From Patescibacteria group bacterium (lineage in GTDB: Bacteria; Patescibacteriota; Microgenomatia; 2-02-FULL-39-11): a DNA stretch of 64,000 nt. Position 1 is the stretch's first letter. Every line of letters begins with the position of its first letter. The notes under the pieces are model-generated. The model made no database searches and was not told the origin of the DNA. It saw only the letters and a program-made list of their open reading frames with translations. The DNA is taken from assembly GCA_023379265.1 (NCBI GenBank), contig JAMCUI010000010.1, positions 200-64,199 on the forward strand. Reading direction: 5' to 3'. Shown in pieces: positions 3,489 through 64,000 of this stretch. A program made the translations under genes and the position numbers.

Positions 3489-4040
3489 ATGGAGAATAAT
3501 CCTGAAAAGAAAATGAAAAGCAGGGGAGAACTGCATAAAATATTTGTTATATTATTTTTTAATATTGTCTTCGGTCTGGATGAGGCGGTGGTAGTAGTTT
3601 ATCTGCGGGAGATGTTGCAAAGAGGTAAGACAGACTTTTTTATGCATCTCTTGGCTCTGGGACAGCATGCAGAGCTTTTTTCCCTGGGCATTATCGCCTT
3701 TCTGACTCCGCAGTCTTTTGCCGGATGGGCTAATTACAATATTGAGCAGCTGCGGGAGGTAGGGACAATGGTGATGCTTCTGGCATTAGGATACGTAGCC
3801 GGCAGAAACCTGAAGGAAAAAGCGGCCTATTTCTTTTTGAGTTTCGGGGTGTGGGATATTTTTTATTATATCTGGCTTTATATTCTAATCGGATGGCCAA
3901 AATCATTGTCTGACTTGGATATTCTTTTCCTTTTGCCTGTGCCGTGGGTGGCTCCTGTAGTATTGCCTGTGTTTATATCTTTGTTTATGGTGATAATATC
4001 GATTTATTACTTAAAGAAAGCGACTGATATTACTGAATGA
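3489..4040 (+). CDS. Hypothetical polytopic membrane protein
   Basis: 183 aa ORF with about four hydrophobic segments. No recognisable catalytic motif. Confidence 0.4.
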   Translation: MENNPEKKMKSRGELHKIFVILFFNIVFGLDEAVVVVYLREMLQRGKTDFFMHLLALGQHAELFSLGIIAFLTPQSFAGWANYNIEQLREVGTMVMLLALGYVAGRNLKEKAAYFFLSFGVWDIFYYIWLYILIGWPKSLSDLDILFLLPVPWVAPVVLPVFISLFMVIISIYYLKKATDITE

Positions 4041-25097: not shown

Positions 25098-26084
25098 TTA
25101 GCGGAAAAGTTTAACCCAAATTTTCATGGCAGTTCTAAGGTCCTTAAAATAATCATCTTTCGGAAATTTTACTTTTTCTACCAACTCTTCATAACAATCT
25201 ACTAAAGCGGTAGATTTAAGTATCAGATGTGCCAATTGAGAGTTGAGAAATTCATTTGTTTCTATACCTTTGGCCTCTTTTTTTAAGTTCTGGAAAACAT
25301 CTGAAGCTTTTTTGTGATCAACAAATGGAGAACCATTTACTACGGCCATTCCCAAGTGGTCGATGATTTTTTTGGCAAACATCCCGGCCCAGATATCGTC
25401 AAACCTGTCGTATCCCCAATGGTTTCCTAGAGGGTCGTATCCCATAAGCGGAAAGTACATAAGGGGAGTAATTTTTGACTTGAAAGCCAAATTCATCGAA
25501 CACATAGGGAAAAGATAGCCTTTAGGAACAAATTCGATAAAAGGGAAACTGTCAGGTATAGAGAGATCTTGATGCAATAATTGCGTTGGAGCGTCAAAAT
25601 CAAGGATATTTTTCCATAGGCCATGGCTTACGACGACTTCCCTTTTACCTCTTATGGCATAGGGGATACCACGAGTATAGTAATATTGTCTGTGCGGATA
25701 GGTGGGATGCCAGCCGTCGGGTGCAGAAAGTGAAAGGTTTTCCACATGCTCATTTATGAAATTTTGTCCGGTGACAGGGTAACAATCGTCGTCAAGAGTG
25801 ATGACAATATCCGCTTTTAACTGAAAAGCTTTCAGAAATCCAAATGAGCGTATACCGGCGTTTTTCCGGGATATTATCCATGAGTTTTTACCCAATTCAT
25901 TGTCTATATCCTGCCAAGTGTAGTGATAGACTTTCTGAAAATATTTTTTAGGTGTGTTTATCTCTTTTGACTTATGGTCTTCGATGATAAAACCTGCACA
26001 ATTGTAAAAGTGGTTTTTCCAATATTTGAGGAAATCCAGGTTTCTGATTGTGGGAATGACAATGGCTATTTTTTTCTGTCGCAT
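25098..26084 (-). CDS. GT75 / reversibly-glycosylated-polypeptide (UDP-arabinopyranose mutase)-like protein
   Basis: The N-terminal [22 protein letters not shown] closely matches the plant RGP signature [20 protein letters not shown]. Followed by [12 protein letters not shown]. 328 aa. Confidence 0.5.
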   Translation of the reverse strand: [328 protein letters not shown]

Positions 26085-26199: not shown

Positions 26200-26916
26200 A
26201 TGGTAGGGAATCAAAATAAACATTTGGGTGTTGCTCTGGGCTTTTTTGTGGTCATGGGTGTACTATTGGGTATAGCTGTAATCGGCGCTGAAACATACAA
26301 TAATTACCGTTCCAAAGCTTACGCCCCTCCTCCCAATCCCATACCCAATTGTACCAGTCTCACAGGTCCTTCTTCAGTTACCGTAGGTCAAAGCGCCACG
26401 TATACCGCAAGCTTTTCTTCGGAACAGGGGAATCTTGGCGGGGAAATTGATGCTGGACAAGGCGGGGCGTTTAAGTGGACACCTGGGAATAAACCAATTT
26501 CCGGAACTTCCGGATCTTTGTCGTTTACCTGGACTCCTACTGTAGTCGGAACATACGATGTGTTCTGTCGTTCATGGAATGATGCAGTTGCCGAATGCCG
26601 TGGCAAAGCAAATTACGTGGATGGGCCACCAAGATACGCTTGTGCAGGACCAACTAGCTCAATGTCTGTCACTGTTGTGGCGGCAGTGACGCCGACGGTA
26701 ACTCAGGCAGCCTGTAACAATAAGACTAAAGGTGATGCCAATTGTGACGGAACAACCGATCTTATCGATTACTCCATCTGGCTTAACCACCAGTGTAACA
26801 AGCAAGCCGCAGGTACAGCTTGTACTGATCTGCGGGCAGATTTTAATGGAGACGGCAGCGTAGATGATGCAGATTTACAAGTGTGGAAAAATAATTACTT
26901 AAGCGATACGCATTGA
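26200..26916 (+). CDS. Secreted Cys-rich protein with a C-terminal double dockerin-like module
   Basis: Signal anchor present, 8 Cys. The C-terminal GDANCDGTTDLIDYSIWLNH and ADFNGDGSVDDADLQVWKNNY form two DxNxDGxxD segments. Confidence 0.55.
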   Translation: MVGNQNKHLGVALGFFVVMGVLLGIAVIGAETYNNYRSKAYAPPPNPIPNCTSLTGPSSVTVGQSATYTASFSSEQGNLGGEIDAGQGGAFKWTPGNKPISGTSGSLSFTWTPTVVGTYDVFCRSWNDAVAECRGKANYVDGPPRYACAGPTSSMSVTVVAAVTPTVTQAACNNKTKGDANCDGTTDLIDYSIWLNHQCNKQAAGTACTDLRADFNGDGSVDDADLQVWKNNYLSDTH

Positions 26917-30678: not shown

Positions 30679-31419
30679 ATGAAGAGGAAGCTTATTTTCA
30701 CTTTTTCGCTGGTAGCGTTCCTTTTTTGTATCAAAGGTGTCAAGGCAGAGGAAGTTCATGCACAGGTTTTTAAGATGCAGCTTGCCAACCCTTCACAAAC
30801 GATCAATGTAGGGGATAATTTTGATATACAGATTATGATAAATACCGCCGGTCAGTCTACCATAAACGGAGACGCGCTTATTACATACGATCCCAATGCG
30901 ATTACTATTGATTCAAGTAATGTCAAGACGGGCAATTTCTATACCTATTTCAGCGCCAATCCTTTAGGTGGATACAATAATAAATTTCTTATCTCCAGTT
31001 GGGAGGAAAGTGTTGCTCACGCAAAATCTACTTCTACAGACGCTCTTTTTGCAACCATGACTGTAGCAGCCAAAAATCCTGGTACAACTACACTGTCTTT
31101 TGACTGTACTACCGGAAATGAAGCTGACTCCAATATCAATTTGGCATCCGATTCATCCGACATCATAAAGTGTCCTCTGCAGCCTTTGACAATAAATATA
31201 GGTGGGGCGGCTCAGCCGACTGCCGCGCCAACCTCAGCCGCTCCAACTTCAGCTCCAACTACTGCGCCAGCAGCAACAAGTACGCCAATTCCCTTGCCAA
31301 CCAAAGCTCCTAGGCCAACTGTGGCAGAGTTAAAAAGAGCAGGAGGAGCAGAAATGACAATTTTAGGATTGGGAGTAGGATTTATACTGACCGTAGTGGG
31401 CGTGGTTTTTGCTTTATAA
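30679..31419 (+). CDS. Cohesin-like domain protein with an Ala/Pro/Thr linker and a C-terminal membrane anchor
   Basis: Signal peptide. INVGDNFDIQIMINTAGQSTINGDALITYDPNAITID is cohesin-like. Followed by AAPTSAAPTSAPTTAPAATSTP and a C-terminal TM (ILGLGVGFILTVVGVVFAL). Confidence 0.5.
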   Translation: MKRKLIFTFSLVAFLFCIKGVKAEEVHAQVFKMQLANPSQTINVGDNFDIQIMINTAGQSTINGDALITYDPNAITIDSSNVKTGNFYTYFSANPLGGYNNKFLISSWEESVAHAKSTSTDALFATMTVAAKNPGTTTLSFDCTTGNEADSNINLASDSSDIIKCPLQPLTINIGGAAQPTAAPTSAAPTSAPTTAPAATSTPIPLPTKAPRPTVAELKRAGGAEMTILGLGVGFILTVVGVVFAL

Positions 31420-31470: not shown

Positions 31471-32181
31471 ATGCATCTGACATCTTTCAAAAAATCGCTC
31501 AAAATTGTAGGAATAATCACGGTTTTGGCTGCAGCTCTTGGCGCAACCATAATAGGCGGAAGTCGCGCAGCACAGCAATTTGCCAAAGCCTCTACATGTC
31601 CGGCACAAAAGATTGCCTCTGCTCAAGTGGGAGCCAATAGCGCAGTTGTCGCCTGGGAGACTACTGATGTCAGTCAGGGAAGAGTGGAATATGGAACTGC
31701 TCCAACTAGCCTAAATTTTACCGCACCGGAGGCAACGAGCGGTAAGATACACAATGTGCCTCTGACGCTTTTGACGCCAAATACTGTCTATTATTATCTA
31801 GTGGCCATAGGGGACAATAAATGTGATTCTTCAGGACAGACTTGTACGGATAATTGTGTGCCTTACAGTTTTACCACCGGTGCTATATCGCCTCAGCCGG
31901 AACTGGTCACAACCACTACTCCCACGCCTCCGGTTTCTCCAACTTTAATACCTCCTGTTGGTACGCCAACCGGTGTAGCTACCCCGTCATCCATGATTTC
32001 ACCATCTAGCAGTGTCAGTCCGACAGGAGGACTTAGCAGTTTTTGCGCTCTGGTACAGGCAAATATCGGCCGCAGCAGTAAAGAGACTTCAGTCTGGAGT
32101 ACATTCAAACAGTACGATATTGATGGAAACGGTATAATAAACGGTTTAGACGTCATCAAATGCCAGCAGAGCGGAAAATAA
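31471..32181 (+). CDS. Membrane-anchored FN3/purple-acid-phosphatase-N-like domain protein with a C-terminal dockerin-like segment
   Basis: N-terminal TM. The FN3-like region is VVAWETTDVSQGRVEYGTAP...NTVYYYLV. PT-linker present. The C-terminus is YDIDGNGIINGLDVIKC. Confidence 0.45.
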   Translation: MHLTSFKKSLKIVGIITVLAAALGATIIGGSRAAQQFAKASTCPAQKIASAQVGANSAVVAWETTDVSQGRVEYGTAPTSLNFTAPEATSGKIHNVPLTLLTPNTVYYYLVAIGDNKCDSSGQTCTDNCVPYSFTTGAISPQPELVTTTTPTPPVSPTLIPPVGTPTGVATPSSMISPSSSVSPTGGLSSFCALVQANIGRSSKETSVWSTFKQYDIDGNGIINGLDVIKCQQSGK

Positions 32182-44076: not shown

Positions 44077-45075
44077 TCAAAAGTAGGTAAACCAGTATTT
44101 ACCGATTATCAATCTTTCAGGTACAAACCCGAAGTTGCGGCTGTCAATACTTACAGTCCGATTGTCTGCAAGGACAAAGTATGAGCCGGTGGGGACACGC
44201 ATGTCGATATTTGTAGGAACAAAGCCACCTGGCACCGTATTTGTTACCATGCTGGTGGGAATATACGGCTCATTTAGTTGTATATCGTTTATATATACTT
44301 TCCCAAAAACAATTTTAACCTTTTCTTGGGGTAGTGCGATTATTCTCCTGATATAAACATTTTGTATATCCTGGGGTACCCTGAAAAGGATAATATCGCC
44401 TCTTTTAGGGTGTTGCCACTGATAACTGAATTTCTGGGTCAGTATGTAGTTTCCGCTTGTGACTGTCGGAGCCATAGAGTCTCCGACCACCTTAAATGGT
44501 GAACCTACCATAAGGTTTAGTAGAATGACTACAGGTGACAATATAAAAGCAAACCCCCAGACAAGGAAAAAGAATATGAAGACCATCAATGACTTTTTGG
44601 AAGAATAAGGAGACGTGTCATGCAGGACTTTTCCAGTTTTGTCCACTTTTACGACTAGAGTACCGGCAATTGTATCATGCCAGCCTTGCCTTTTTTTATT
44701 GATAAGTACCCACAAATACCCAAGCTCAAAAACCAATTCGCTTATCCATTTCCCCACGGTTTCTCTTATTACTGCATGAGTGAAATTCACCTTGCCGTAA
44801 TTTACCGTTACCACTTTCAGCCGCATCATTTTTTTACCTATCGTGGCTCCGTCTTTGGCAATAAACAATATATTGTAACCATAAATAAGAATAACCTGTA
44901 GGATGATAGAGATGATATTTCTGGATGGAAAGCTCGTCAGTGTCAAAACCAAATATTGGATTAAAAGAAGAGGGATAAGAAGTACAGCCTCATCAATCAT
45001 AAAGGCTGTTAACCGCTCAACTAATGTTCCTTTGACATAAGCTTCGTGTGCAGCCGAAGCTTCTTTTTTGGGCAT
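44077..45075 (-). CDS. lepB: Fusion of an N-terminal RDD-family membrane domain with signal peptidase I (S26)
   Basis: N-terminal RDD-like region (ERLTAFMIDEAVLLIPLLLIQYLVL). C-terminal SPase I boxes: GDSMAPT (Ser box), GDIILFR, RRIIALPQEKV (Lys box), and GSYFVLADNRTVSIDSRNFGFV. Confidence 0.7.
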   Translation of the reverse strand: MPKKEASAAHEAYVKGTLVERLTAFMIDEAVLLIPLLLIQYLVLTLTSFPSRNIISIILQVILIYGYNILFIAKDGATIGKKMMRLKVVTVNYGKVNFTHAVIRETVGKWISELVFELGYLWVLINKKRQGWHDTIAGTLVVKVDKTGKVLHDTSPYSSKKSLMVFIFFFLVWGFAFILSPVVILLNLMVGSPFKVVGDSMAPTVTSGNYILTQKFSYQWQHPKRGDIILFRVPQDIQNVYIRRIIALPQEKVKIVFGKVYINDIQLNEPYIPTSMVTNTVPGGFVPTNIDMRVPTGSYFVLADNRTVSIDSRNFGFVPERLIIGKYWFTYF

Positions 45076-51257: not shown

Positions 51258-53543
51258 TTATTTCAGTTCTTCCAGTTTTTTCTTAGCGTCCGCATCATTT
51301 GGATTGAGATGTTGCAGTATAAACTGCAATGCCTCTCGAGCTTTTTGTTCCTCCTTTTCCTTGTCGTACAGGAAAGCCAGGGCATAGTAAGCGTCACGGT
51401 AATCAGGTTTCAGTTTAGTGGTTGCCACAAGTTCATCAATTCCCTTTTTAGTCTGGCTCATCTTGTCATATAAGAGTCCCATATTATATGTGATTTTGGG
51501 ATCAGTCGGTGAGAGCTGGTGAGATACTTTTAGAGCGTCCATAGCGTCTGCCAGGTATTTCTGGTCAATTTGAGAAAGTACATAGTAAACGCGGGTTTTT
51601 GTTTTCCAGAAATTAACATTGTTTGGAGAAATTGATGTAGCCATGGAACTAGCCAAAATCGCCTGATTTTTGAGTGCTCCCGAATACGTACTGTTTTTAT
51701 TGTCAGCAAAAGCCAAAGCCATCTCGGAAGCAGCAAAGGAAAATTCATCAAAATATAATGGCTCGCCGTTATTGAGGGAAATAGCATCCTTTATATCTGT
51801 GTAGGCAGTGGTAAAGTCTTGGCCTTGGGAAGCGCGGTAGCCGCTGGCAAAGACGGTATCTGCATACCACATGACAGTTAGTGTAAAAACCAAATAAAGG
51901 ACTACTCCCATAACGGTAATGATTCCAGCATACTGGAGAATGGAAAGCTGATTTTCCTCATAAGGCATGGATCGCGCTGTTTTTTTCTTTGTTTTGGTGG
52001 ATGCCGTAGAGGGAAAAAGAAAATATGGAAGTGAGCCGTTTTCACCATAATAATAGATAAATGCCATAGCCGGCATAAGGAAAAGAAGTATTTGCATGAT
52101 GACTACAGAAAAGCCAAAGAAGTTGGTGATAAGAATTGAAAGCCAGCCTGAAAATAATGAAAGGACGATTAGTTGCGTGCTGTGGGCTGTGGGCCCGCCT
52201 GTCGGCGAGGCAGGTTGTGGGTTATTATCCAGTCTCAGACTGGATCCCGCTGAGGCGGGATGAGTCGTGGGTTTATCCTGAGCGGCGTCAACAGCGAAGG
52301 GTTGAATCTTAAAAAGACTCCAAAAGATAAATACTCCCAAAATCAAAAGGTAAGTTCCCAAGCCGAAAGCACCAGTAGTCGCTGCGAAATTCAGGTATTC
52401 GTTATGAGCTTTGTTATAAAGAAAATCCCATTCTGAAGTCATATTGTGTTCAACTGGGCGGAATTTGTAGTAGGAAAAAGCAAAAGTTTCAACCCCGGTA
52501 CCAAAAAGCGGATAATGACGGAATATATCAAGTGCACCTTTCCAAACAATCTCCCTGATCTTGCCTGATCCTGTAATTCCTACCTCTATTATCGAACCGC
52601 CGATCGGTTTTTGGATTTTTGGTAAAGGTTGTTTATGCTCAATTTTAGTTTGGAAAGAAGTGTATAAGTCTGGAAGTGTAAATTTACTCAACTGGTCAAA
52701 AGGGATACCCAATATGAATGTAAAAATGATAAACGACAAATTAAAAATGAGTAAAATCCTGACTGTGGCATGCCGGTATTTTAATTTCAGTAGTAGGATA
52801 AGCCAAAAAATAAAGTTGACTACCCAAAAGGCAATAAACCCCGAGCGGGATTTGGTAAAGATGAGTGCGGCATAAAAAAGGATGGCAACAGAGAGATATT
52901 TCCAAAAAGTCCGGTCAGACAACATGTCTTTAGCTTCTTCCCATATATGGGAGATTTGCTGTAGGCTCAAAGCAAAAGTGATTGGAAGAAGGGCAACTAA
53001 ATAGGCTGCCAGCCAGTTGGGCTGGCCGAGTGTGGAAAAAACCCGATCCTGTACATCCTGGACCCAAAGGTCTTTATCTATGCCAAGATGCTCCAGGACG
53101 CCGTAAAATGCAATTAATATTGCGGAAGCTAATGTTACATAAAGAAGCGTTTTGATTTTTCCCCTTGGGAAATTGGTGACAAAAGCGTAGAAAAGCAGAA
53201 TATAGCTAATTGTTGATAATAGCCCGCCATTGAATCTGCTATAGTAACCCCATAATGAAACGTGTTGGTCTATGGAGAGGATTGTAGATATGGTTTGGCT
53301 TATAAGAAAAAGCAGAATAGGTATGTCAAGAGGCGTACGGGCAATCCTGAGTTTTTTTTCTATAAGCATTTTTGCCATCCAAGCGCCCACGATAATGACG
53401 GTTAACCCATATGTCAACATCATTTTGTTATACTCGAAAAGCTCGTAATTGAGAGGTGAAAGTATTATGGGTACTAAGAAAAACAGCAGGAAAAAAGTAT
53501 AGATGATGATATTGTCGAAAAAGTGTCCAAGAGCTTTTTGCAT
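51258..53543 (-). CDS. O-antigen-ligase-like polytopic membrane protein fused to a C-terminal TPR-repeat domain
   Basis: 761 aa. More than 10 TM helices and a Wzy_C-like loop (TKSRSGFIAFWVVNF). The C-terminus has TPR repeats (YNMGLLYDKMSQ...AYYALAFLYDKEK). Confidence 0.6.
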   Translation of the reverse strand: MQKALGHFFDNIIIYTFFLLFFLVPIILSPLNYELFEYNKMMLTYGLTVIIVGAWMAKMLIEKKLRIARTPLDIPILLFLISQTISTILSIDQHVSLWGYYSRFNGGLLSTISYILLFYAFVTNFPRGKIKTLLYVTLASAILIAFYGVLEHLGIDKDLWVQDVQDRVFSTLGQPNWLAAYLVALLPITFALSLQQISHIWEEAKDMLSDRTFWKYLSVAILFYAALIFTKSRSGFIAFWVVNFIFWLILLLKLKYRHATVRILLIFNLSFIIFTFILGIPFDQLSKFTLPDLYTSFQTKIEHKQPLPKIQKPIGGSIIEVGITGSGKIREIVWKGALDIFRHYPLFGTGVETFAFSYYKFRPVEHNMTSEWDFLYNKAHNEYLNFAATTGAFGLGTYLLILGVFIFWSLFKIQPFAVDAAQDKPTTHPASAGSSLRLDNNPQPASPTGGPTAHSTQLIVLSLFSGWLSILITNFFGFSVVIMQILLFLMPAMAFIYYYGENGSLPYFLFPSTASTKTKKKTARSMPYEENQLSILQYAGIITVMGVVLYLVFTLTVMWYADTVFASGYRASQGQDFTTAYTDIKDAISLNNGEPLYFDEFSFAASEMALAFADNKNSTYSGALKNQAILASSMATSISPNNVNFWKTKTRVYYVLSQIDQKYLADAMDALKVSHQLSPTDPKITYNMGLLYDKMSQTKKGIDELVATTKLKPDYRDAYYALAFLYDKEKEEQKAREALQFILQHLNPNDADAKKKLEELK

Positions 53544-56437: not shown

Positions 56438-58195
56438 TTGTCAAAACCTATGGCAAATAATCCCTTTGGTAAAATTTTCGGAGAAGAAATAGTCAAAGGC
56501 CAAAAAAGAAGGCTTTACCGGGATAGTTCCCAAAATAGTGAAGCATCTACCGTCGGAAGATATTGGCTTTTTTTAGTGCTTCTTGTTTTATGTCTTGGTT
56601 TGCTGTCGGCGAGACTTTTTAGTCTCACAATTATTGAAGGAAGTCTTTACCGCCGGCTATCTGAAGGTAACCGTATCAGGGAAACGGTGATTGCGGCAGC
56701 GCGAGGCATAATTTATGACCGTAATGGAAACGTCCTGGTACGAAATATCCCGTTTTTCAAAAGCAGAAACGGCCGTGAATTTTTTGAAAACAAGCCTGCG
56801 AGTGTTTCAGGAGGATTGATTGAATCAGTTGCTAGGGATTATGTTTACGGAGATCTCTTTGCCCACGTATTGGGATATACGGGAGAGATAGGAAAAGACG
56901 AACTAGACCAGCTTGCCGACACTGGTAGTTATCAGGTTGGAGACCAGATAGGTAAAATGGGTATTGAGAAGTTTTACGACAGGATACTTCATGGGCGGGA
57001 CGGCAAGGAACTGGTTGAAGTGGACGCAATAGGAAAACCGGTCAGGATTTTGGGAAGGGTAGATCCGGTTGACGGCCAGAATATAAAGCTTGGGTTGGAT
57101 CTGGGACTCCAGCAGGCGGCTTCCGCAAGCATGCAAGGGAAAATCGGAGCAGTAGTAGCAGAAAACCCGCAGACGGGGGAAGTGATGACTCTTTATTCGT
57201 CCCCCACTTTTGACCCCAACGCCTTTGTACGCAACGCCGACTTGTCAAAAATATTTACGGATTCCACACAACCTCTTTTTGACAGAGCAATAGCAGGACA
57301 ATATCCTCCAGGATCCACATTCAAGGTAATTACGGCTTTGTCGGCCCTTGAGACTGGGGCTATTACTCCCCAAACCCAGTTTGAAGATACGGGTATACTG
57401 CAAGTGGGAAAATTCTCTTTCGCCAACTGGTATTTTACACAGTATGGTAAGAAGGAGGGGATGGTAGATGTGGTTAAAGCAATAAAAAGGTCAAACGATA
57501 TATTTTTCTATAAGACGGGGGAGGCAATAGGGATTGAGAGGCTAGCCGATTGGGCCAAAAAAATGGGTTTGGGAAAGCCTCTTGGGATTGACATACCAGG
57601 GGAAATGCCGGGACTTATGCCTGATCCTATGTGGTTGCAGAAGACAAGGGGAGAGGATTGGTATTTGGGCAATTCCTACCATGTGGCTATCGGCCAGGGG
57701 GACATATTGACTACGCCCCTCCAGATTAATGCATGGACGAACATAGTTGCCAACGGAGGCAAACTTTGCACACCTCATATTTTGACCACCGATAAAAATT
57801 CGGGTAAATATTGCAAAGATGTGGGTATAAAAAGCGAATATATAGATCTTGTGCGGGAAGGGATGAAAGAAGCGTGTGCCACTGGCGGCACTGGCTGGCC
57901 TCTTTTTGATTTCAAGGTCCAGTCGGAGAAACTTAAGCCTGATGGGTTGGATTTTTTTGAGGCGCCGGAAGCAACTATATCCGGAAAACCTTGGGTATCC
58001 ATACCGACCGCCTGCAAGACGGGTACTGCTGAATATGGTGATCCACAAGGACGTACCCACGCACTTTTTACCGTATTTGCTCCTGTTAACCATCCGCAAA
58101 TTTCCGTGACAGTGGTGGTGGAGGGTGGAGGCGAGGGTTCAAACGTCGCCGCCCCGGTAGCCAAGAATCTTTTAGAAAACTGGTTTGAAAGATAA
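56438..58195 (+). CDS. mrdA: Penicillin-binding protein 2 (class B transpeptidase)
   Basis: N-terminal TM, dimerisation domain, and transpeptidase motifs STFKVITA (SxxK), SND (SxN) and KTGTA (KTG). 585 aa. Confidence 0.85.
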   Translation: MSKPMANNPFGKIFGEEIVKGQKRRLYRDSSQNSEASTVGRYWLFLVLLVLCLGLLSARLFSLTIIEGSLYRRLSEGNRIRETVIAAARGIIYDRNGNVLVRNIPFFKSRNGREFFENKPASVSGGLIESVARDYVYGDLFAHVLGYTGEIGKDELDQLADTGSYQVGDQIGKMGIEKFYDRILHGRDGKELVEVDAIGKPVRILGRVDPVDGQNIKLGLDLGLQQAASASMQGKIGAVVAENPQTGEVMTLYSSPTFDPNAFVRNADLSKIFTDSTQPLFDRAIAGQYPPGSTFKVITALSALETGAITPQTQFEDTGILQVGKFSFANWYFTQYGKKEGMVDVVKAIKRSNDIFFYKTGEAIGIERLADWAKKMGLGKPLGIDIPGEMPGLMPDPMWLQKTRGEDWYLGNSYHVAIGQGDILTTPLQINAWTNIVANGGKLCTPHILTTDKNSGKYCKDVGIKSEYIDLVREGMKEACATGGTGWPLFDFKVQSEKLKPDGLDFFEAPEATISGKPWVSIPTACKTGTAEYGDPQGRTHALFTVFAPVNHPQISVTVVVEGGGEGSNVAAPVAKNLLENWFER

Positions 58196-59036: not shown

Positions 59037-59723
59037 CTAATTAATTACGACAACCTTTTCTTCTTGTAGGAAATGTTCGTCAAGTCCTCCATCTCTTCCG
59101 ATTACATCAGCAAAAAAACTGATAAAAAGAGGTGTTGAAAGACGGCTGCCGTAATAAGGAAATCTCCAGTTTCTACTTCTTTCCAGGTCCAGTCTGACCG
59201 GGTCACTCCTAGTTCTGATTTCGTGAGGAATCTGGCCACTAACCATTCCTGATATTCTGTTGGCACTTATCGGATTTTCGGTCTGCCTAGCTTGGTAAAC
59301 TGCGCATGCTTTCAAAGTCTGATATGACTCATCCAATGTCTCCTGACCCCGATTTTGCGTGTGTGTCCTAAGTAACATTTGCTGTCCCAGAAGGGCATCC
59401 TGAGCAAAAAAAGCATTCGCAAATACATTTAATTCATGGGGTTGAGGTTCTTGTAATCCTTCTGTCATTATTGGTGCAGCAGCTGAGGGGAGAAGGGGAA
59501 AGTTTTCAAAACCGGGAATACCTGTCAAATGATGCCTGCAAAAATGCAAGATAAAGTTTGGGGCATACTGTCTGCGTTTTACCGCTGTGGTTAGGTTTCT
59601 ATGCTCCCAAGTATTTAACGCTGTTTCTCCTAATCCCAGCATACTGATTTCATCCAATGATTGGGCAACTGCAGGATAGGCTAATAATTCCTGATATGGC
59701 TTTCTTCTTTCGGGATCGCTCAT
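59037..59723 (-). CDS. Hypothetical protein (228 aa)
   Basis: ORF only, with no recognised motif. It sits between convergent and divergent neighbours. Confidence 0.4.
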   Translation of the reverse strand: MSDPERRKPYQELLAYPAVAQSLDEISMLGLGETALNTWEHRNLTTAVKRRQYAPNFILHFCRHHLTGIPGFENFPLLPSAAAPIMTEGLQEPQPHELNVFANAFFAQDALLGQQMLLRTHTQNRGQETLDESYQTLKACAVYQARQTENPISANRISGMVSGQIPHEIRTRSDPVRLDLERSRNWRFPYYGSRLSTPLFISFFADVIGRDGGLDEHFLQEEKVVVIN

Positions 59724-59852: not shown

Positions 59853-61412
59853 TTAGGGTAAGATGGTTTGTGCCAAATGCAGAAGATTTGTAATGAAAGT
59901 GTTTACCGTTGATTTGGCAGAGTCCACTGTTTTTTTAATATCTATTATGGGGACGGTGGTAGGTATTGGTGATGGGAGGGTGGTTGGTTGATTGGCAGAA
60001 GGTTGTTTGCTGCCGGTATCTGCACCAGATGATGGAGATTGACTGTTGTTTCCTCCATTCTGTGCCGCCGGAATTGTAGGAGGAAGATAGTAGGTGATAG
60101 GAGGATTAAAGCCAACTGCCGGAGGATTGGTTGGTTCGGCAGGATTGGTATAGATGGATGTGGGGGCAGGGCCATTGGGAGGATTAGTGTTATCACCTAC
60201 CCATGGTGTGGGATTCCACGTTGAATTATTATTGTTGTCAGGAGATTGATTATTGTTATTTGGACTTGAGGTGGGTGCCGGCGGTTGTGAATTAAGTTGT
60301 GAAGACATTTGAGTTATGAAGCTTGTGCAGGTTGAAGATGATCCGTCAGCACAGGGACCGCCATATGTCCCCAGGTCTTTTCCGCCGGGAATACTCGGAT
60401 CTCCTGCGCCGATAGCGGGGGAACCTGTTTTCAGACTATAGTTTCCACCCCAGCCGCGCCAGCCTGATTGGTCGTTGGCGGCAACATCAAGCAAGGGGTC
60501 AGCAGCGATTTTTCCCGTAAAATCGGTACAATATTCATGATTATCATAACAGGGATGATTGTTTTTCCACAGTAAATCGTAGGCAATGTGTTGGTTTTTA
60601 AACTGGGTGACAGTATCAGGACAATTGCCGTAAATCCATCCGGCGCCGATTGTCAACTCATCATCAACAACGATATTATTTACAAAATCCATAGGGGGAA
60701 TATTCTGGTTACAGTCGGCGTTTATCGCTTTGGATCCGGAAAAAGTATTGTTGTAAACCATGACTTTTACCGCATTGTCCGTTGTAACACCGATATTGTT
60801 GATCCAGAAATCATTTACTGCCAGGATTGATGATCCTTTTGTGAGGATAAGTCCTCCTTGATCGTTGCCATCTACAAGGCTGTTTTTGAGAATCAGATTA
60901 GTATTTTTTAGTATAAGACCTCTTCCCTGAAATTCCTTGATATGAAGACTATCAATTGTAACTGTTCCTCCTGTACTGCAGATTCCGGCTCGATGGACAT
61001 AATCGTTGGGTTTGCTGTGTCCCTCACCGTAGAGGACAGAGCCGACAAATTCTCCAAACGGACTGCCTTCGCCTTTCAGTGTCAGGCTTTTGCCTCGCAG
61101 ATCCAAAAAACAGCCGGATGTGCCCCATCCCACGGCAACGGGTGTTTCCTGGGGACCGGAATAAGTACCCTTGCCTATTATTATAGTGTCACCGTTTTGG
61201 GCGGCATCCACTGCCTGCTGGAGTCCGGCCGGTCCGGCATAATCGCAGCCTGCTGCGGCTTGCGCACAGACTGTTTTGGTACCGGGGGCGGCGGCTTTGG
61301 AGCGTATTTCGATGCTTTTTTCTTTGGGTAAAAGAATCTGCATAGCAAGAGCAGAGAAGACTATAAGTATCATCGATAAAAAAATAAATTTTGGAGAGTC
61401 AGGATTATGCAT
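59853..61412 (-). CDS. Secreted right-handed parallel beta-helix (pectin-lyase-fold) protein with a Pro/Thr/Asn-rich linker and a conserved C-terminal tail
   Basis: Signal peptide. Beta-helix repeats (NNIGVTTDNAVKVMVYNNTFSGSKAINADCNQNIPP...). The linker is NPPAVGFNPPITYYLPPTIP. The tail is SPIPTTVPIIDIKKTVDSAKSTVNTFITNLLHLAQTILP. Confidence 0.6.
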   Translation of the reverse strand: MHNPDSPKFIFLSMILIVFSALAMQILLPKEKSIEIRSKAAAPGTKTVCAQAAAGCDYAGPAGLQQAVDAAQNGDTIIIGKGTYSGPQETPVAVGWGTSGCFLDLRGKSLTLKGEGSPFGEFVGSVLYGEGHSKPNDYVHRAGICSTGGTVTIDSLHIKEFQGRGLILKNTNLILKNSLVDGNDQGGLILTKGSSILAVNDFWINNIGVTTDNAVKVMVYNNTFSGSKAINADCNQNIPPMDFVNNIVVDDELTIGAGWIYGNCPDTVTQFKNQHIAYDLLWKNNHPCYDNHEYCTDFTGKIAADPLLDVAANDQSGWRGWGGNYSLKTGSPAIGAGDPSIPGGKDLGTYGGPCADGSSSTCTSFITQMSSQLNSQPPAPTSSPNNNNQSPDNNNNSTWNPTPWVGDNTNPPNGPAPTSIYTNPAEPTNPPAVGFNPPITYYLPPTIPAAQNGGNNSQSPSSGADTGSKQPSANQPTTLPSPIPTTVPIIDIKKTVDSAKSTVNTFITNLLHLAQTILP

Positions 61413-61415
61413 GAT

Positions 61416-62861
61416 TTACGGCAATATCACTCTAGTAAATTTTATCAGCGAACTGAATATATCAAAGAGAATCATTCTTGTATTTTTTACTGTCTTGCCG
61501 ATATCTATTATAGGCGCAGGAGTGGGAATAGGAGAAGGAGTGAATGTGGGGGTCTGTGAAGGTTGGGGAGGGATTGTTGCGGCAGGAGCAGTTGTAGGCC
61601 GGATCATTTGGGGCGGGGGAGATAATTGTATGGGTAAAGAAACAACAGGTTGGGGTTGTGGAGTTGGCGATGGTAATACTGAGGTTGGTAAAGGAAGATT
61701 AGTGGGAGCAGGTGGAATGTTGGTAGGTTGCCAAACAACTTGCGTTGGTGGATTTGTGGGAGGTGGAGGTGAGGAGGGAAGTGGATTGTTTGCCGGTTGG
61801 CCACCCAGATAATTTGACAGCCAGGAAGCGATGGGATCTACATTGAAGGATTTCCAGTCGGAGTTGTTTCCAATTTGGAAAAGGGTAACTCCCAAAATAT
61901 ATGGATCCTGTTTTATCTGTCCGTCATACCATTGCAGCCAGTCTTCAAATTTTGACGCATCACCTCTGGCGTTCCAACCGTCAGTTTGACCATTGCCACT
62001 CTTGTCCACTCCGCCTTCAGTCAAAATCATGGGCATATCCGAAAGGTCAGGCGCGTTTTGCCGGAAATAATCATAAAAAGAGCGGTATCTGAGAGACGTC
62101 CAGTTTTCCTGGTTTACATCAGTGGTATAGTCCAGGGAGTAAGCATGATAGCTCCAGACTCCTCCAAGTTGTTTTATCTCCCGAAGGGCTGGTACGAGTG
62201 GTCCGAGAAGGTCCGGCCCCAGGTTGCCGACAGGTATTTCTCCCATATCGGGTTTGAAGCCGTTTTGAGACATAATTTCCGACAGCTTCTCCCAGAATTT
62301 GGCCGTCCAGTCGGCTGTTGTCTGGGAATTGATAATTGGTGTATTGCCGTATTCATTGGGTCCAGCAAGATAGGTAATAAGTTGTTTATCGGCAGATGAG
62401 AGTTTGGCTGTGGCAGGCCCTAAAAGTTTATTCCAAAAATCCTGAGCTGACTCTCCCGGATCGTTTGAAACTCCATAAACAGGTGCATCACCTTCATAGA
62501 CGCGCATAACTACAATCCCGTCCGGATAAGAGTTTTTGTAATCTCTGACTATATTCATTAGTGACGAATCATTTTGTGGGTCTATCACTTTTATGACGCG
62601 CGGTCCGGCGTGAGCAATAGTTTCTCCTCCGCCAGAGGCTCCAAGATAAAAGACGCCGATTTTGCTCGTGGATAGAAGAGAGGTTGAATATGTGTTTAGA
62701 GTTTTTGGTAAGTCTTTTGATTTGGCTTGTGAGGAGGTGAGTTGTGGGTATTGAGCGGCCCAGAATACCAAAGGCAGGAGAAGAAGGGATAATAATGTCA
62801 GGTAAACCTTGAAAAAGCTGCTTCTATGAAAACGGCGTATCTGTTTTTTCTTTTTTCTCAT
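61416..62861 (-). CDS. Secreted glycoside-hydrolase-like (clan GH-A TIM barrel) protein with a long Pro-rich linker and the same conserved C-terminal tail. The true start is probably ATG 62861.
   Basis: Signal peptide (MRKKKKQIRRF...LLSLLLLPLVFWAAQ). GPNEYG (acid/base-like) and ILTEGGVD (nucleophile-like) motifs. The linker is PLPSSPPPPTNPPTQ...PQPSQTPTFTPSPIPTPA. The tail is PIIDIGKTVKNTRMILFDIFSSLIKFTRVILP. The track ORF extends to a TTG at 62945. Confidence 0.55.
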   Translation of the reverse strand: MRKKKKQIRRFHRSSFFKVYLTLLSLLLLPLVFWAAQYPQLTSSQAKSKDLPKTLNTYSTSLLSTSKIGVFYLGASGGGETIAHAGPRVIKVIDPQNDSSLMNIVRDYKNSYPDGIVVMRVYEGDAPVYGVSNDPGESAQDFWNKLLGPATAKLSSADKQLITYLAGPNEYGNTPIINSQTTADWTAKFWEKLSEIMSQNGFKPDMGEIPVGNLGPDLLGPLVPALREIKQLGGVWSYHAYSLDYTTDVNQENWTSLRYRSFYDYFRQNAPDLSDMPMILTEGGVDKSGNGQTDGWNARGDASKFEDWLQWYDGQIKQDPYILGVTLFQIGNNSDWKSFNVDPIASWLSNYLGGQPANNPLPSSPPPPTNPPTQVVWQPTNIPPAPTNLPLPTSVLPSPTPQPQPVVSLPIQLSPPPQMIRPTTAPAATIPPQPSQTPTFTPSPIPTPAPIIDIGKTVKNTRMILFDIFSSLIKFTRVILP

Positions 62862-62918: not shown

Positions 62919-63047
62919 GTATACTTCTTGCGTTTGAAAATGCAATCATTATATATACTTTTAGAAGCTATCTCAAAATCTCATTTTCAAGCCTGAAGGA
63001 ATAATATAATCCGAAGCTAAAAACAGGATATACCCATCTTACTCCGG
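62919..63047. repeat. Intergenic repeat, copy C: X' (62919-62958, direct) immediately followed by Y in inverted orientation (62959-63047)
   Basis: 62959-63045 is the reverse complement of 53701-53786 with near-perfect identity. X' is about 85% identical to 53554-53590. Confidence 0.75.
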
Positions 63048-63102: not shown

Positions 63103-64000
63103 ATAATGGACAATGATGAGAAAAAGTACTGGTTAGGATTTTCCGCTTTCCCTGGAATAGGGCCTCTACGTTTTGCATTGCTTTTGAAATTCTTCAAAAC
63201 CGCCCAGAAAGCTTGGGAAGCCAAAAGGGAAAAACTTTTGGAAATTGGTTTGGGAGAAAAATTGACTGAGTCTTTTTGTGCATTTAGGATGTCATTTTCA
63301 CTGAAGGATTATATTGAATTATTGAATAAGAAAAGTATCCGGGTACTTACGTTAAAAGACAGTACTTATCCCAAGCTTTTGAAAGAGATTGCGGCGGCAC
63401 CTTTCGTCCTTTATATCAGGACAGATGGGGAAATTGCTTTTGATGATGAAAGAAATATCGCTGTTGTTGGTACGAGGAAGATTACAAGCTATGGCAGGGA
63501 AGTGACGGCAAGACTTACGCGTGATTTGGTTGCTTTTGGTTGCACTATTGTTTCCGGCATGGCGTATGGGGTAGATACTGTAGCGCATCATACGGCAATA
63601 GAGTCAGGCGGACGGACAATTGCCGTTTTGGGTTGCGGAGTTGATGTAATACATCCGCAAAGTAACACTCCGCTTTATTGGAATATAGTGAGAAAATACG
63701 GCATGGTGATTTCAGAGTTTCCGGCCGGACAATATGCCTCCAAAGGTCTTTTTCCCGCCAGAAACAGGATCATAAGCGGTTTATCCCGCGGAGTTCTAGT
63801 GACCGAGGGGGCTGAGGACAGTGGGGCGCTTATTACTGCCAGGTGTGCAGTCGAGCAGGGGCGGGAAGTTTTTGCTATACCCGGTCCCATCACATCATCT
63901 CTTTCTGCCGGTCCTGCAAAATTATTAAAGCAGGGCGCAAAGTTGGTGGCAAAAGTGGAAGATATTCTGGAAGAATTAAATATAAGGAATATGCAAATAA
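63103..64000 (+). CDS. dprA: DNA-processing protein DprA/Smf (runs off the window end)
   Basis: MDNDEKKYWLGFSAFPGIGPLRFALL (SAM-like N-terminus), then a Rossmann region (VVGTRKITSYGREVTARL...VSGMAYGVDTVAHHTAIESGGRTIAVLGCGVDVIHP). No stop codon within the window. Confidence 0.8.
   Translation, partial: MMDNDEKKYWLGFSAFPGIGPLRFALLLKFFKTAQKAWEAKREKLLEIGLGEKLTESFCAFRMSFSLKDYIELLNKKSIRVLTLKDSTYPKLLKEIAAAPFVLYIRTDGEIAFDDERNIAVVGTRKITSYGREVTARLTRDLVAFGCTIVSGMAYGVDTVAHHTAIESGGRTIAVLGCGVDVIHPQSNTPLYWNIVRKYGMVISEFPAGQYASKGLFPARNRIISGLSRGVLVTEGAEDSGALITARCAVEQGREVFAIPGPITSSLSAGPAKLLKQGAKLVAKVEDILEELNIRNMQI

What the first reader, a model, noticed from the sequence alone, without database searches (positions are those of the whole stretch)
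59853..62861. Two tandem secreted enzymes sharing a conserved ~30-aa C-terminal tail after long Pro/Thr-rich linkers: a possible novel sorting or anchoring signal
The beta-helix protein and the GH-like protein are unrelated in their catalytic parts. Both end with SPIPTxxPIIDIxKTV(x14-15)ILP-stop. The tails are SPIPTTVPIIDIKKTVDSAKSTVNTFITNLLHLAQTILP and SPIPTPAPIIDIGKTVKNTRMILFDIFSSLIKFTRVILP, of identical length. The tail is not a TM helix and not an LPXTG/PEP-CTERM signal. The placement is reminiscent of C-terminal sorting domains such as T9SS CTDs and exosortase or archaeosortase signals: signal peptide, passenger, low-complexity linker, then a conserved tail at the extreme C-terminus. A cognate processing enzyme would be expected elsewhere in the genome.
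Basis: seen in the sequence. Interest (0 to 1): 0.55.

Follow-up and report, generated by a model that had tools for sequence, protein, structure and literature searches.

The report
Shared C-terminal helix tail on secreted glycanases
Two neighbouring secreted sugar-degrading enzymes of an uncultivated Gottesmanbacteria-type (CPR) bacterium end in the same conserved, positively charged amphipathic helix; it is undescribed, restricted to one small gene cassette in this lineage, and most likely tethers the enzymes to the cell surface rather than acting as a classical cleaved sorting signal.

Summary
Genes A (59853..61412, -) and B (61416..62861, -) have unrelated catalytic parts: a right-handed beta-helix resembling polysaccharide lyases, and a (beta/alpha)8 clan GH-A glycosidase. 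Both end in a disordered Pro/Thr linker plus the same 32-residue tail.

A tail profile built without the window proteins scores B 52 bits and A 45 bits; the next window ORF scores 6.5. The tail is old and under protein-level selection. It shows no indels across 40 unique tails, and it is the best-conserved segment of the beta-helix orthologues.

An exhaustive search of 1.84 billion proteins found 18 real clusters, all with the tail at the extreme C-terminus. They fall into three passenger families. In all five loci where both flanks are visible, the tail genes sit as 2-3 consecutive genes between dprA and PBP2-mreDCB in Gottesmanbacteria-type contigs.

The tail is one cationic amphipathic alpha-helix, not a transmembrane segment. 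Homologues elsewhere carry dockerins or C-terminal transmembrane anchors at that position.

Best reading: a lineage-specific, non-covalent surface-retention module that works like the C-terminal anchor of PBP5. A sortase- or exosortase-type signal is not supported. No Pfam or NCBIfam model matches the tail. Function is inferred, not shown.

The parts
59853..61412 (-). Gene A (519 aa). Family F1: N-terminal signal/TM, right-handed beta-helix domain, Pro/Thr/Asn-rich linker, C-terminal tail.
   Evidence: ORF. Identical to an NCBI protein named 'right-handed parallel beta-helix repeat-containing protein [Patescibacteria group bacterium]'. AF2 mean pLDDT 78. Best Foldseek hits are pectate lyase Pel9A, PL6 lyases and RbmB.
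59856..59951 (-). Tail of A, aa 488-519: PIIDIKKTVDSAKSTVNTFITNLLHLAQTILP. The stop codon is at 59853..59855.
   Evidence: 45.5 bits against the leave-out tail profile. AF2 predicts a helix at 492-517 that starts directly after Asp491; block-mean pLDDT is 70, 87 and 72 over residues 491-519. Helix net charge +2, muH 0.47.
59952..60293 (-). Linker of A, aa 374-487. Disordered and rich in P/T/S/N/Q. It includes the conserved PT-x-TPT prefix of the tail.
   Evidence: pLDDT below 50 for aa 381-480. Linker length varies from 68 to 119 aa among orthologues, with 38% gapped columns, whereas the tail has no gaps.
60075..60098 (-). ITYYLPPT motif inside the linker of A (aa 439-446).
   Evidence: [IVL][ST]YY[LIF]PPT occurs in 32 proteins. 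All are tail-bearing F1 proteins, and the motif lies 68-87 aa from the C-terminus. No tail-less F1 homologue has it.
60294..61280 (-). Beta-helix catalytic domain of A (aa 45-373).
   Evidence: Pfam Beta_helix hit, weak here (E=6e-5) and clear in orthologues. AF2 pLDDT is mostly above 90. Foldseek matches polysaccharide lyases and hydrolases.
61287..61388 (-). N-terminal hydrophobic segment of A (aa 9-28) followed by the conserved IRSKAA motif (aa 36-41). Probably a signal peptide with an S-x-A cleavage site.
   Evidence: KD 2.58. The RSKA motif is conserved in F1 orthologues (consensus; sequences). Cleavage is inferred, not tested.
61416..62861 (-). Gene B (481 aa). Family F2: N-terminal signal/TM, clan GH-A (beta/alpha)8 glycosidase domain, Pro/Thr linker, C-terminal tail. 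Its stop codon lies 3 nt before the start codon of A, so the two are probably co-transcribed.
   Evidence: ORF. AF2 mean pLDDT 81, with the barrel above 95. Foldseek matches GH5, GH128 and GH1 (E about 1e-6). N169-E170 are nearly invariant and E282 is invariant.
61419..61514 (-). Tail of B, aa 450-481: PIIDIGKTVKNTRMILFDIFSSLIKFTRVILP. The stop codon is at 61416..61418.
   Evidence: 52.1 bits against the leave-out tail profile. AF2 predicts a helix at 454-479 that starts directly after Asp453. Helix net charge +4, muH 0.48.
61515..61802 (-). Pro/Thr-rich linker of B (aa 354-449).
   Evidence: pLDDT below 50 for aa 374-451. P/T-rich stretch detected.
61803..62678 (-). GH-A (beta/alpha)8 catalytic domain of B (aa 62-353).
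62754..62816 (-). N-terminal hydrophobic segment of B (aa 16-36), ending in the W-A-A-Q-x-x-Q motif. A possible S-Q-A cleavage site follows.
   Evidence: KD 2.0. The W[AG]xQxxQ motif is shared by F2 and F3 proteins.
62948..62976 (-). Promoter-like site upstream of B (TTGAGA-17-TATAAT).
   Evidence: 11 of 12 matches. This is a consensus match only.
63220..64000 (+). dprA, divergent from the cassette and running off the window end. It marks the upstream boundary of the conserved cassette.
   Evidence: Translation matches the DprA of L002. The same synteny is seen.
56438..58195 (+). PBP2 (transpeptidase), convergent with the cassette. It marks the downstream boundary and is part of the mreB-mreC-mreD-PBP2 row.
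   Evidence: PF03717, PF00905. The synteny is conserved in L002-L009.

Best explanation
The tail is a lineage-specific, non-covalent surface-retention module: a 26-27-residue cationic amphipathic alpha-helix.

Proposed mechanism:
1. The enzymes are exported by Sec through an N-terminal signal, which is probably cut at a conserved S-x-[AG] site (inferred).
2. The catalytic domain is held away from the cell on a 70-120-residue, probably extended (and possibly O-glycosylated) Pro/Thr stalk.
3. The C-terminal helix lies in the interface of the outer leaflet of the cytoplasmic membrane. Its aromatic and aliphatic face (V/A/W/F/I/F/I/L) is buried and its lysines sit at the boundary.

This keeps 2-3 co-encoded glycan-degrading enzymes on the cell that made them. 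It is the way the C-terminal amphipathic helix tethers E. coli PBP5/PBP6 to the outer face of the inner membrane.

Shown: the module exists, is portable, conserved, helical, amphipathic, cationic and terminal, and it replaces known anchors.
Inferred: that it anchors, and that the target is the membrane rather than a protein receptor.
For: 1. Portability. The same tail is present on three unrelated passenger folds, always at the extreme C-terminus.
2. Constraint. It is the most conserved segment of F1 orthologues: 55% identity against 41% for the catalytic domain, with zero gaps in the 40 canonical tails (P0167 alone carries a 7-residue insertion). Of the identical residues, 54% are encoded by different codons.
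3. Structure. AF2 gives one helix that starts right after the conserved Asp, which fits an N-cap role, in both A and B. The linker is disordered.
4. Physical chemistry in 40 unique tails. Net helix charge is +1 to +5. Mean muH is 0.48, with a sharp 100-degree periodicity, and it exceeds shuffles in 39 of 40 tails. Mean hydrophobicity is 0.13, too low for a TM segment. Conserved Trp, Phe and flanking Lys residues are typical of interfacial helices.
5. Slot equivalence. Beta-helix homologues in other lineages have a cleavable signal peptide plus C-terminal multi-TM anchors, or dockerins, at the same position. F2 homologues carry dockerin, CARDB or nothing.
6. The same genome uses other C-terminal modules after P/T linkers, namely a TM anchor and a dockerin.
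7. One member has an insertion of exactly 7 residues, which preserves the helical phase (P0167).
8. Precedent. [quoted passage not shown]
Against: - There is no experimental or proteomic evidence for localisation or for an intact C-terminus.
- Generic membrane-binding helices usually do not keep an exact length or conserved polar residues. Here the length is invariant, and D14, K17, T18, K23, S32, T37 and the terminal Pro are conserved. That would fit a specific protein partner better.
- The tail occurs only on genes of one cassette, and every locus where the neighbours are visible has at least two tail genes. This could point to mutual assembly rather than simple anchoring.
- If the N-terminal segment is an uncleaved signal anchor, a second anchor would be unnecessary.
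- AF2 helix confidence is only moderate (block means 63-87).
Confidence: 0.45

Rival explanations
1. The tail is a docking or assembly peptide. The helix binds a specific protein: either a surface receptor or scaffold, or the tails of the sister enzymes in a helical bundle. The 2-3 cassette enzymes would then be assembled into one surface complex, functionally like dockerin-cohesin but built from a single helix.
For: - Length is invariant, and polar positions and the terminal Pro are conserved.
- Each passenger family keeps its own tail subtype.
- All five loci where the neighbours are visible have at least two adjacent tail genes: {F2,F1}, {F3,F1}, {F3,F1,F1}, {F3,F2,F1}.
- Hydrophobic positions show heptad-like a/d spacing, and one member has a one-heptad insertion.
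- Homologues carry dockerins in this slot.
- The genome itself has a dockerin protein and a cohesin-like protein.
Against: - No conserved candidate receptor gene lies in the cassette. The gene after F1 differs in every locus and is absent in L009.
- Core positions are rich in Trp and Phe, and the polar face is N/S/T-rich rather than E/K-rich. That is atypical for canonical coiled coils.
- All tails are net cationic, which disfavours tail-tail bundles without an acidic partner.
- I had no multimer prediction tool.
Confidence: 0.25
2. The tail is a cleaved C-terminal sorting signal. The P-[LI]-I-D-x-x-K-T motif would be recognised and cut by a dedicated protease or transpeptidase, which would attach the enzyme covalently to the wall, a lipid or another protein. 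The helix would be the discarded recognition element.
For: - A conserved short motif lies directly N-terminal to a helix at the extreme C-terminus, after a Pro/Thr stalk. That is the general layout of LPXTG and PGF-CTERM substrates.
- Dedicated sorting systems with very few substrates are known (own knowledge, not tested here).
Against: - The helix is not a TM segment and there is no basic C-terminal cluster.
- There are no hits to any NCBIfam or Pfam sorting-signal model.
- Some F2 members lack the motif yet keep the helix and ILP (P0046, P0049).
- In dedicated systems the enzyme gene is usually adjacent. None is conserved next to this cassette.
- No sortase, exosortase, rhomboid or CAAX-protease domain was found among 44 scanned ORFs of the 64-kb window.
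- The conserved Asp is explained as a helix N-cap in the AF2 models.
Confidence: 0.12
3. The tail is a host-directed membrane-active peptide. In an episymbiotic CPR cell, a cationic, Trp-containing amphipathic helix could insert into the envelope of the host bacterium and deliver or hold the glycan-degrading enzymes there, in the manner of a cationic antimicrobial peptide.
For: - The helix is cationic and amphipathic, 26-27 residues long, with net charge +1 to +5.
- The passengers are polysaccharide-degrading enzymes.
- Cultivated Patescibacteria are obligate episymbionts (abstract of PMC11623550, listed).
Against: - There is no evidence that this organism has a host contact apparatus near the cassette.
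- The physical chemistry does not distinguish the cell's own membrane from a host membrane.
- Homologues with C-terminal TM anchors point to the producer's own membrane.
Confidence: 0.06

Closest known systems
C-terminal amphipathic-helix membrane anchor of low-molecular-weight PBPs (E. coli PBP5/DacA, PBP6, DacD)
   Same: A Sec-exported enzyme is tethered by a terminal amphipathic helix of about 18-27 residues that lies on the outer face of the cytoplasmic membrane. There is no TM segment and no covalent attachment. The exact anchor matters for function (PMC2909392).
   Different: - There is no sequence homology.
- Here the helix is longer and follows a 70-120-aa Pro/Thr stalk.
- It has a conserved N-cap motif (P-L-I-D-x-x-K-T) and an invariant terminal Pro.
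- The passengers are glycanases or lyases, not DD-carboxypeptidases.
- Membrane binding is not demonstrated.
Dockerin type I (PF00404) - cohesin docking
   Same: It is a C-terminal module after a Pro/Thr linker on secreted polysaccharide-degrading enzymes. Dockerins occupy exactly this slot in homologues of both A and B. The function would be the same under the docking rival.
   Different: A dockerin is a ~60-70-aa duplicated Ca-binding F-hand. This tail is a single 32-aa helix with no Ca-binding loops and no Pfam match. No receptor is known.
Tripartite C-terminal sorting signals (LPXTG/sortase; PEP-CTERM, PGF-CTERM, GlyGly-CTERM/exosortase-archaeosortase-rhombosortase)
   Same: Both have a short conserved motif near the extreme C-terminus of secreted proteins, often after a Thr/Pro-rich stalk, and both are shared by unrelated passengers.
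   Different: - There is no TM helix, no basic tail and no model match.
- Only 2-3 substrates are seen, all in one cassette.
- The motif is dispensable in some members.
- No cognate enzyme was found.
T9SS C-terminal domain
   Same: Both are conserved C-terminal elements on secreted enzymes.
   Different: The T9SS CTD is a ~70-100-aa beta-sandwich of diderm Bacteroidota and needs an outer membrane translocon (own knowledge). The tail is a 32-aa helix in a Patescibacteria genome.

Membership tests
LPXTG / sortase sorting signal | LPXTG-like pentapeptide | tested here: not met
   No LPXTG-like motif in either tail. The conserved motif is P-[LI]-I-D-[IV]-x-K-T.
LPXTG / sortase sorting signal | Hydrophobic TM segment followed by a basic C-terminal cluster | tested here: not met
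   Mean Eisenberg hydrophobicity of the helix is 0.13. KD for the last 18-19 residues is about 0.3 (consensus) to 1.65 (B, borderline), against 2.0-2.6 for the N-terminal TM segments. The proteins end in I-L-P, not in K/R.
LPXTG / sortase sorting signal | Sortase encoded in the genome | tested here: inconclusive
   No sortase domain among 44 window ORFs scanned or among the precomputed Pfam annotations of the flanking genes. The rest of the genome was not available.
Exosortase / archaeosortase / rhombosortase signals (PEP-CTERM, PGF-CTERM, GlyGly-CTERM and related) | Match to one of the NCBIfam C-terminal sorting-domain models; motif plus TM plus Arg/Lys cluster | tested here: not met
   No NCBIfam hit for the full proteins at E<=0.1 or for the isolated tails at E<=10. 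No TM segment or basic cluster.
Exosortase / archaeosortase / rhombosortase signals (PEP-CTERM, PGF-CTERM, GlyGly-CTERM and related) | Signal shared by many paralogous targets, or processing enzyme adjacent to a dedicated target | tested here: not met
   Only 18 real clusters in 1.84e9 representatives, falling into three passenger families; wherever context is visible they lie in one cassette. No conserved enzyme gene lies beside the cassette.
T9SS C-terminal domain | A beta-sandwich domain of about 70-100 aa | tested here: not met
   The conserved part is 32-42 aa. AF2 predicts a single alpha-helix. No Pfam or NCBIfam match.
Dockerin type I (PF00404) | Duplicated Ca-binding loop-helix motif; Pfam match | tested here: not met
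   No PF00404 hit in A, B or the tails. The same search finds dockerins in homologues P0017 and P0087 and in window ORF 26200..26916.
PBP5-type C-terminal amphipathic membrane anchor (a functional class, not a homology family) | Amphipathic alpha-helix at the extreme C-terminus, too polar to span the membrane | tested here: met
   AF2 helices at A 492-517 and B 454-479. muH 0.48 at 100 degrees, above shuffles in 39 of 40 tails. Mean hydrophobicity 0.13.
PBP5-type C-terminal amphipathic membrane anchor (a functional class, not a homology family) | Protein exported by an N-terminal signal peptide that is removed | tested here: inconclusive
   N-terminal hydrophobic segments are present (KD 2.0-2.6). 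Conserved S-x-[AG] motifs lie about 10 aa downstream. No signal-peptide predictor was available, so cleavage is inferred.
PBP5-type C-terminal amphipathic membrane anchor (a functional class, not a homology family) | Tail-dependent association with the outer face of the cytoplasmic membrane | not testable with these tools
   This needs fractionation or liposome binding experiments.
Type 1 secretion C-terminal signal | Substrate lacks an N-terminal Sec signal; uncleaved C-terminal signal; ABC/MFP/OMP exporter | tested here: not met
   Both proteins and all family members have N-terminal hydrophobic signal segments.
Canonical coiled coil | Heptad a/d hydrophobic core with charged e/g positions | tested here: inconclusive
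   Hydrophobic positions 19, 22, 26, 29/30, 33, 36 and 40 follow 3-4 spacing, and one member has a 7-residue insertion. However, the core is rich in W and F, and the flanks are N/S/T rather than E/K.
Glycoside hydrolase clan GH-A (passenger of B) | (beta/alpha)8 barrel with an N-E acid/base motif on strand 4 and a nucleophile Glu on strand 7 | tested here: met
   AF2 barrel with pLDDT above 95. Foldseek matches GH5, GH128 and GH1 at E about 1e-6. N169-E170 are nearly invariant and E282 (TEGG) is invariant in 120 sequences. Assignment to a specific GH family was not made.
Right-handed parallel beta-helix polysaccharide lyase/hydrolase (passenger of A) | Right-handed beta-helix fold | tested here: met
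   PF13229 is weak in A and clear in orthologues. AF2 shows beta-helix strands. Foldseek matches Pel9A, PL6 lyases and RbmB. Catalytic residues and substrate were not tested.

The most novel reading that the evidence does not exclude
The tail is a new kind of minimal docking or sorting tag specific to Gottesmanbacteria: a single helix recognised by an as yet unidentified surface receptor or processing enzyme, or by the sister tails. It would assemble the 2-3 co-encoded glycan-degrading enzymes into one surface machine. The genes lie beside the elongasome genes, so the machine might remodel the cell's own envelope or attack a host envelope. That would be a CPR-specific protein-targeting system with no homologue among known sorting or docking systems.
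Probability: 0.25. Interest if true: 0.7.

Novelty: new variant of a known kind. Interest (0 to 1): 0.45.

Why it matters
CPR/Patescibacteria are ultra-small, mostly uncultivated, probably host-dependent bacteria, and their cell-surface biology is largely unknown. This is a compact, sharply defined, undescribed C-terminal module. It marks a small set of secreted polysaccharide-degrading enzymes and is better conserved than their catalytic domains.

If it is a surface anchor, it shows how these cells keep costly exo-enzymes attached without sortase-type machinery. It would also supply a 32-residue tag that could be tested directly with a synthetic peptide or a reporter fusion.

If instead it has a dedicated receptor or processing enzyme, it would define a new lineage-specific targeting system.

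The finding also supplies a profile that can annotate these proteins, which are currently labelled 'hypothetical'. The scope is narrow: about 18 protein clusters in 1.84 billion, from one lineage.

Tried and rejected
- **Tail-only search of the word-indexed 5.8-billion protein set** found nothing because of the index, not because of absence. It was replaced by full-length searches and the exhaustive profile search.
- **Genome and metagenome scans** with back-translated tail patterns confirmed only 1 and 2 loci. A 40-tail alignment was too diverse for pattern design. The family is rare, and short-query tblastn confirmation is insensitive.
- **Recent duplication or gene conversion** is rejected. 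Synonymous sites are saturated, and tail subtypes track passenger families.
- **Chance or low-complexity artefact** is rejected.
- **Known family** is rejected for the tail. There are no significant Pfam or NCBIfam hits; only QIL1 and Sgf11_N noise at E about 0.1.
- **A conserved partner gene downstream of A** is rejected. The 228-aa ORF at 59037..59723 has no Pfam hit and no similarity to the genes at the same position in L002. That position holds different genes in L003, L005 and L007 and none in L009.
- **Sequence search of the PDB** with both family profiles gave nothing useful. Fold assignment came from AF2 plus Foldseek.
- **P0171**, the nineteenth hit of the exhaustive search, is a repetitive unrelated protein and a false positive.
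- **The CPR 'Pam' donor-strand pilus paper** was checked for a possible link to the short beta-like PLIDI segment. No connection was found.
- **Cluster look-up for taxonomy** returned no names.
- **Literature searches** for Gottesmanbacteria or Patescibacteria C-terminal anchors and sorting signals returned nothing relevant.

Full report
**1. What is in the sequence**

Two back-to-back ORFs lie on the minus strand.
- A = 59853..61412 (519 aa).
- B = 61416..62861 (481 aa from ATG/MRKKKK). A longer TTG ORF reaches 62945, but a promoter-like site (11 of 12) ends at 62948.
- The stop of B lies 3 nt before the start of A, so the two are probably co-transcribed.

The quoted tails are exact.

Outside the linker and tail, BLASTP finds no similarity between A and B.

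The window comes from a Patescibacteria (CPR) contig. A is identical to an NCBI protein from 'Patescibacteria group bacterium', and its closest named relatives are from Candidatus Gottesmanbacteria.

**2. More than chance, and not a recent duplication**

- In register, 12 of 32 tail residues are identical. The maximum is 7 for 268 other ORF C-termini of the window, and 0 of 100,000 shuffles reach 12.
- A profile built only from tails of other organisms scores B at 52.1 bits and A at 45.5 bits. The next of 798 window ORFs scores 6.5 bits.
- At the DNA level the two tails differ at most synonymous positions.
- Over 12 tails with DNA in hand, 54% of identical residues use different codons.
- Tails of orthologues are 75-88% identical, whereas tails of different families within one genome are 31-56% identical. 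Each passenger family therefore carries its own old tail subtype.

**3. The passengers**

| Protein | AF2 model | Closest structures | Other evidence |
|---|---|---|---|
| A | Confident right-handed beta-helix, mean pLDDT 78 | Pectate lyase Pel9A, PL6 lyases, RbmB | Pfam Beta_helix weak in A, clear in orthologues |
| B | (beta/alpha)8 barrel, pLDDT above 95 | GH5, GH128, GH1 | Clan GH-A signature: N169-E170 nearly invariant, E282 in TEGG invariant across 120 homologues |

Both linkers are predicted disordered: A 381-480 and B 374-451.

In both models the tail is one helix that begins immediately after the conserved Asp: A 492-517 and B 454-479. Block-mean pLDDT over the tail is 63-87.

**4. 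How widespread the tail is**

Of 40 homologues of A, 21 carry the tail, ungapped from the C-terminus. Several close homologues of B also carry it.

An exhaustive HMMER search of 1.84 billion representative proteins with the 42-column tail profile found 19 hits at E<=1e-3.
- 18 are real, and all of them have the tail at the extreme C-terminus.
- One (P0171) is a false positive.
- They fall into three passenger families: F1 (beta-helix), F2 (B-like GH-A) and a third family, F3, of about 250 aa with no Pfam match.

Pfam and NCBIfam have no model for the tail. Scans of 185,579 species genomes and of JGI metagenomes added only three loci. The module is therefore real but rare and lineage-restricted.

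One caveat applies. A 42-column profile can only detect fairly canonical tails at this database size. Divergent variants exist (P0008 and P0054 end in YLP; P0046 and P0049 lack PLIDxxKT).

**5. Genomic context**

In every locus where both flanks are visible, the tail genes are consecutive. They sit between a divergent dprA and a convergent PBP2-mreD-mreC-mreB row, which is followed by a Wzy_C+TPR gene.

| Locus | Tail genes in the cassette |
|---|---|
| Window | F2, F1 |
| L002, L003 | F3, F1 |
| L005 | F3, F1, F1 |
| L007, L009 | F3, F2, F1 |

- F1 is always present.
- Wherever the neighbours are visible there are at least two tail genes.
- The gene between F1 and PBP2 differs in every locus and is absent in L009. 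No extra gene is conserved inside the cassette.
- A permissive profile scan of all six-frame ORFs of the window and of eight related loci found no further tails: real tails score at least 49.8 bits, and everything else scores 6.6 bits or less.

**6. Anatomy of the tail (40 unique sequences)**

The consensus is PT-[IP]-TPTP-[KA]-P-[LI]-I-D-[IV]-x-K-T-[VI]-x-x-[ATV]-K-x-x-[WIL]-x-x-[FIL]-[IVFL]-x-S-Phi-I-x-F-T-[KQR]-x-I-L-P-COOH.

- The terminal Pro is invariant (40 of 40).
- P11 (39), D14 (37), K17 (38), T18 (36) and L41 (38) are nearly invariant.
- There are no indels in these 40 tails. P0167, not among the 40, has an insertion of exactly seven residues.
- Hydrophobic positions follow 3-4 spacing.

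Physical properties of the helix:
- Mean Eisenberg hydrophobicity is 0.13.
- Mean hydrophobic moment is 0.48, with a sharp maximum at 100 degrees. It exceeds shuffles in 39 of 40 tails.
- Net charge is +1 to +5, with a mean of +2.9.

Kyte-Doolittle values over the last 18-19 residues range from about 0.3 (consensus) to 1.65 (B, borderline). The N-terminal TM segments score 2.0-2.6.

Among F1 orthologues the tail is the most conserved part of the protein. Pairwise identity is 55% with no gaps, against 41% for the catalytic domain and a 38%-gapped linker of 68-119 aa.

**7. What sits in the same slot elsewhere**

- Beta-helix homologues outside this lineage have classical cleavable signal peptides. 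After a low-complexity linker they carry either a C-terminal block of TM helices, a type I dockerin, or another small domain.
- F2 homologues end in nothing, in dockerins, or in CARDB or malectin-type domains.
- The window itself encodes a dockerin protein (26200..26916). It also encodes a cohesin-like protein with a P/T/A linker and a C-terminal TM anchor (30679..31419), and further P/T-linker proteins.

The position after the Pro/Thr linker is therefore used for attachment modules in this organism and its relatives.

**8. Interpretation**

*Shown.* The tail is a portable, strongly constrained, terminal, cationic amphipathic helix shared by three unrelated exo-enzyme families of one cassette.

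*Inferred.* It retains these enzymes at the cell surface. I favour binding to the outer face of the cytoplasmic membrane (confidence 0.45) for four reasons:
- the helix is cationic;
- the apolar face contains Trp and Phe, with flanking Lys residues;
- homologues have TM anchors at this position;
- PBP5 and PBP6 provide a precedent (PMC2909392).

The N-terminal segments are followed, about 10 residues downstream, by conserved S-x-[AG] motifs: RSKA in F1, and SQA, SEG or SFG in F2 and F3. These look like signal-peptidase sites. If they are cut, the tail would be the only tether. This is inference only.

*Rivals.*
- **Docking to a protein receptor or to sister tails (0.25).** This explains the exact length, the conserved polar residues and the occurrence of at least two tail genes per visible locus better than lipid binding does.
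- **Cleaved sorting signal (0.12).** This is disfavoured. There is no TM segment and no basic tail, no model match, very few substrates, no adjacent enzyme, and some members lack the motif. The conserved Asp can be explained as a helix N-cap.
- **Host-membrane targeting (0.06).** This cannot be excluded.

**9. Novelty and score**

The tail matches no described family, and I found no literature on it. Functionally it is best seen as a new variant of known C-terminal retention modules.

Its scope is narrow and its function is unproven, so interest is moderate (0.45). If a dedicated receptor or processing enzyme exists (probability 0.25), it would be a new CPR-specific targeting system (interest 0.7).

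Noticed in passing
window 26200..26916 (+), 30679..31419 (+), 31471..32181 (+), 6372..8225 (+): The genome may hold a small cohesin-dockerin system. ORF 26200..26916 has a type I dockerin above the Pfam cutoff (25.9 bits). ORF 30679..31419 has a signal peptide, a weak Cohesin hit (E=0.0019, below cutoff), a P/T/A linker and a C-terminal TM anchor. The neighbouring FN3-like protein (31471..32181) and a subtilase (6372..8225) end, after P/T linkers, in D-x-D/N-G-x-x-D loops that look dockerin-like by eye only.
   Followed up: partly
window 60075..60098 (-), aa 439-446 of A; same motif in P0003-P0040, L002-L007: A conserved [IVL][ST]YY[LIF]PPT motif lies inside the otherwise variable linker, 68-87 aa from the C-terminus. 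It occurs in 32 proteins, all of them tail-bearing beta-helix (F1) proteins. No tail-less F1 homologue has it, and none of the F2 or F3 proteins collected has it. P0164 has two copies. Its role is unknown; it could be a second recognition element or a glycosylation site.
   Followed up: partly
window 61287..61307 (-) in A; 62700..62760 (-) in B; N-termini of P0163-P0169, L002-L007 genes: Conserved motifs follow the N-terminal hydrophobic segment. In F1 it is [IL]RS[KR]AA, about 8-10 aa after the TM. F2 and F3 share W[AG]xQxxQ at the TM end, followed by S-x-[AG]. These may be signal-peptidase sites with unusually long c-regions, or a lineage-specific N-terminal processing motif. In the window, only A carries RS[KR]A.
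   Followed up: partly
P0167 (tail), P0046/P0049, P0008/P0054, P0047/P0048/P0051: Several tail variants exist. P0167 has an exact 7-residue insertion (KEAINKS) in the helix. P0046 and P0049 lack PLIDxxKT but keep the helix and ILP. The proteins from Gottesmanbacteria GW2011_GWC2_39_8 end in a divergent helix plus YLP. Some F2 homologues instead end in a Cys-rich CCFDPIC segment followed by a different amphipathic helix.
   Followed up: partly
window 51258..53543 (-), 8313..11081 (+), 13133..14587 (-): The window encodes three Wzy_C (O-antigen-ligase-like) proteins. One carries TPR repeats and is conserved next to mreB in all related loci. One is fused to a Bac_transf sugar transferase and sits inside a glycosyltransferase/ABC-2 cluster at 8-20 kb. 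Wzy_C-type enzymes include protein O-oligosaccharyltransferases (own knowledge), so they might glycosylate the Pro/Thr linkers. This was not tested.
   Followed up: no
window 44077..45075 (-): A single ORF fuses an RDD-family membrane domain to a type I signal peptidase (Peptidase_S26).
   Followed up: no
window 25098..26084 (-): There is a strong match to the 'reversibly glycosylated polypeptide' family (PF03214, E=4e-56). As far as I know this family comes mainly from plants, so it is unusual in a CPR bacterium. It lies in a cluster with a radical-SAM/B12 enzyme, a PLP decarboxylase and a methyltransferase.
   Followed up: no
window 59037..59723 (-): The 228-aa ORF directly downstream of A has no signal peptide and no Pfam or NCBIfam match. 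It has no similarity to the genes at the same position in related loci. That position is variable across genomes.
   Followed up: partly
L002 10161..11837 (+): In the Gottesmanbacteria MAG JACPZE010000009, the gene after the tail cassette encodes a 558-aa protein. It has an internal TM segment and a C-terminal region with a GH-A-like 'FGNEPN' motif, seen by eye. It has no tail and no Pfam hit.
   Followed up: no
window 4030..5796 (-): A 588-aa protein has a weak GH10 match (E=1e-7). It is another putative secreted glycanase in the same window, and it has no tail.
   Followed up: no
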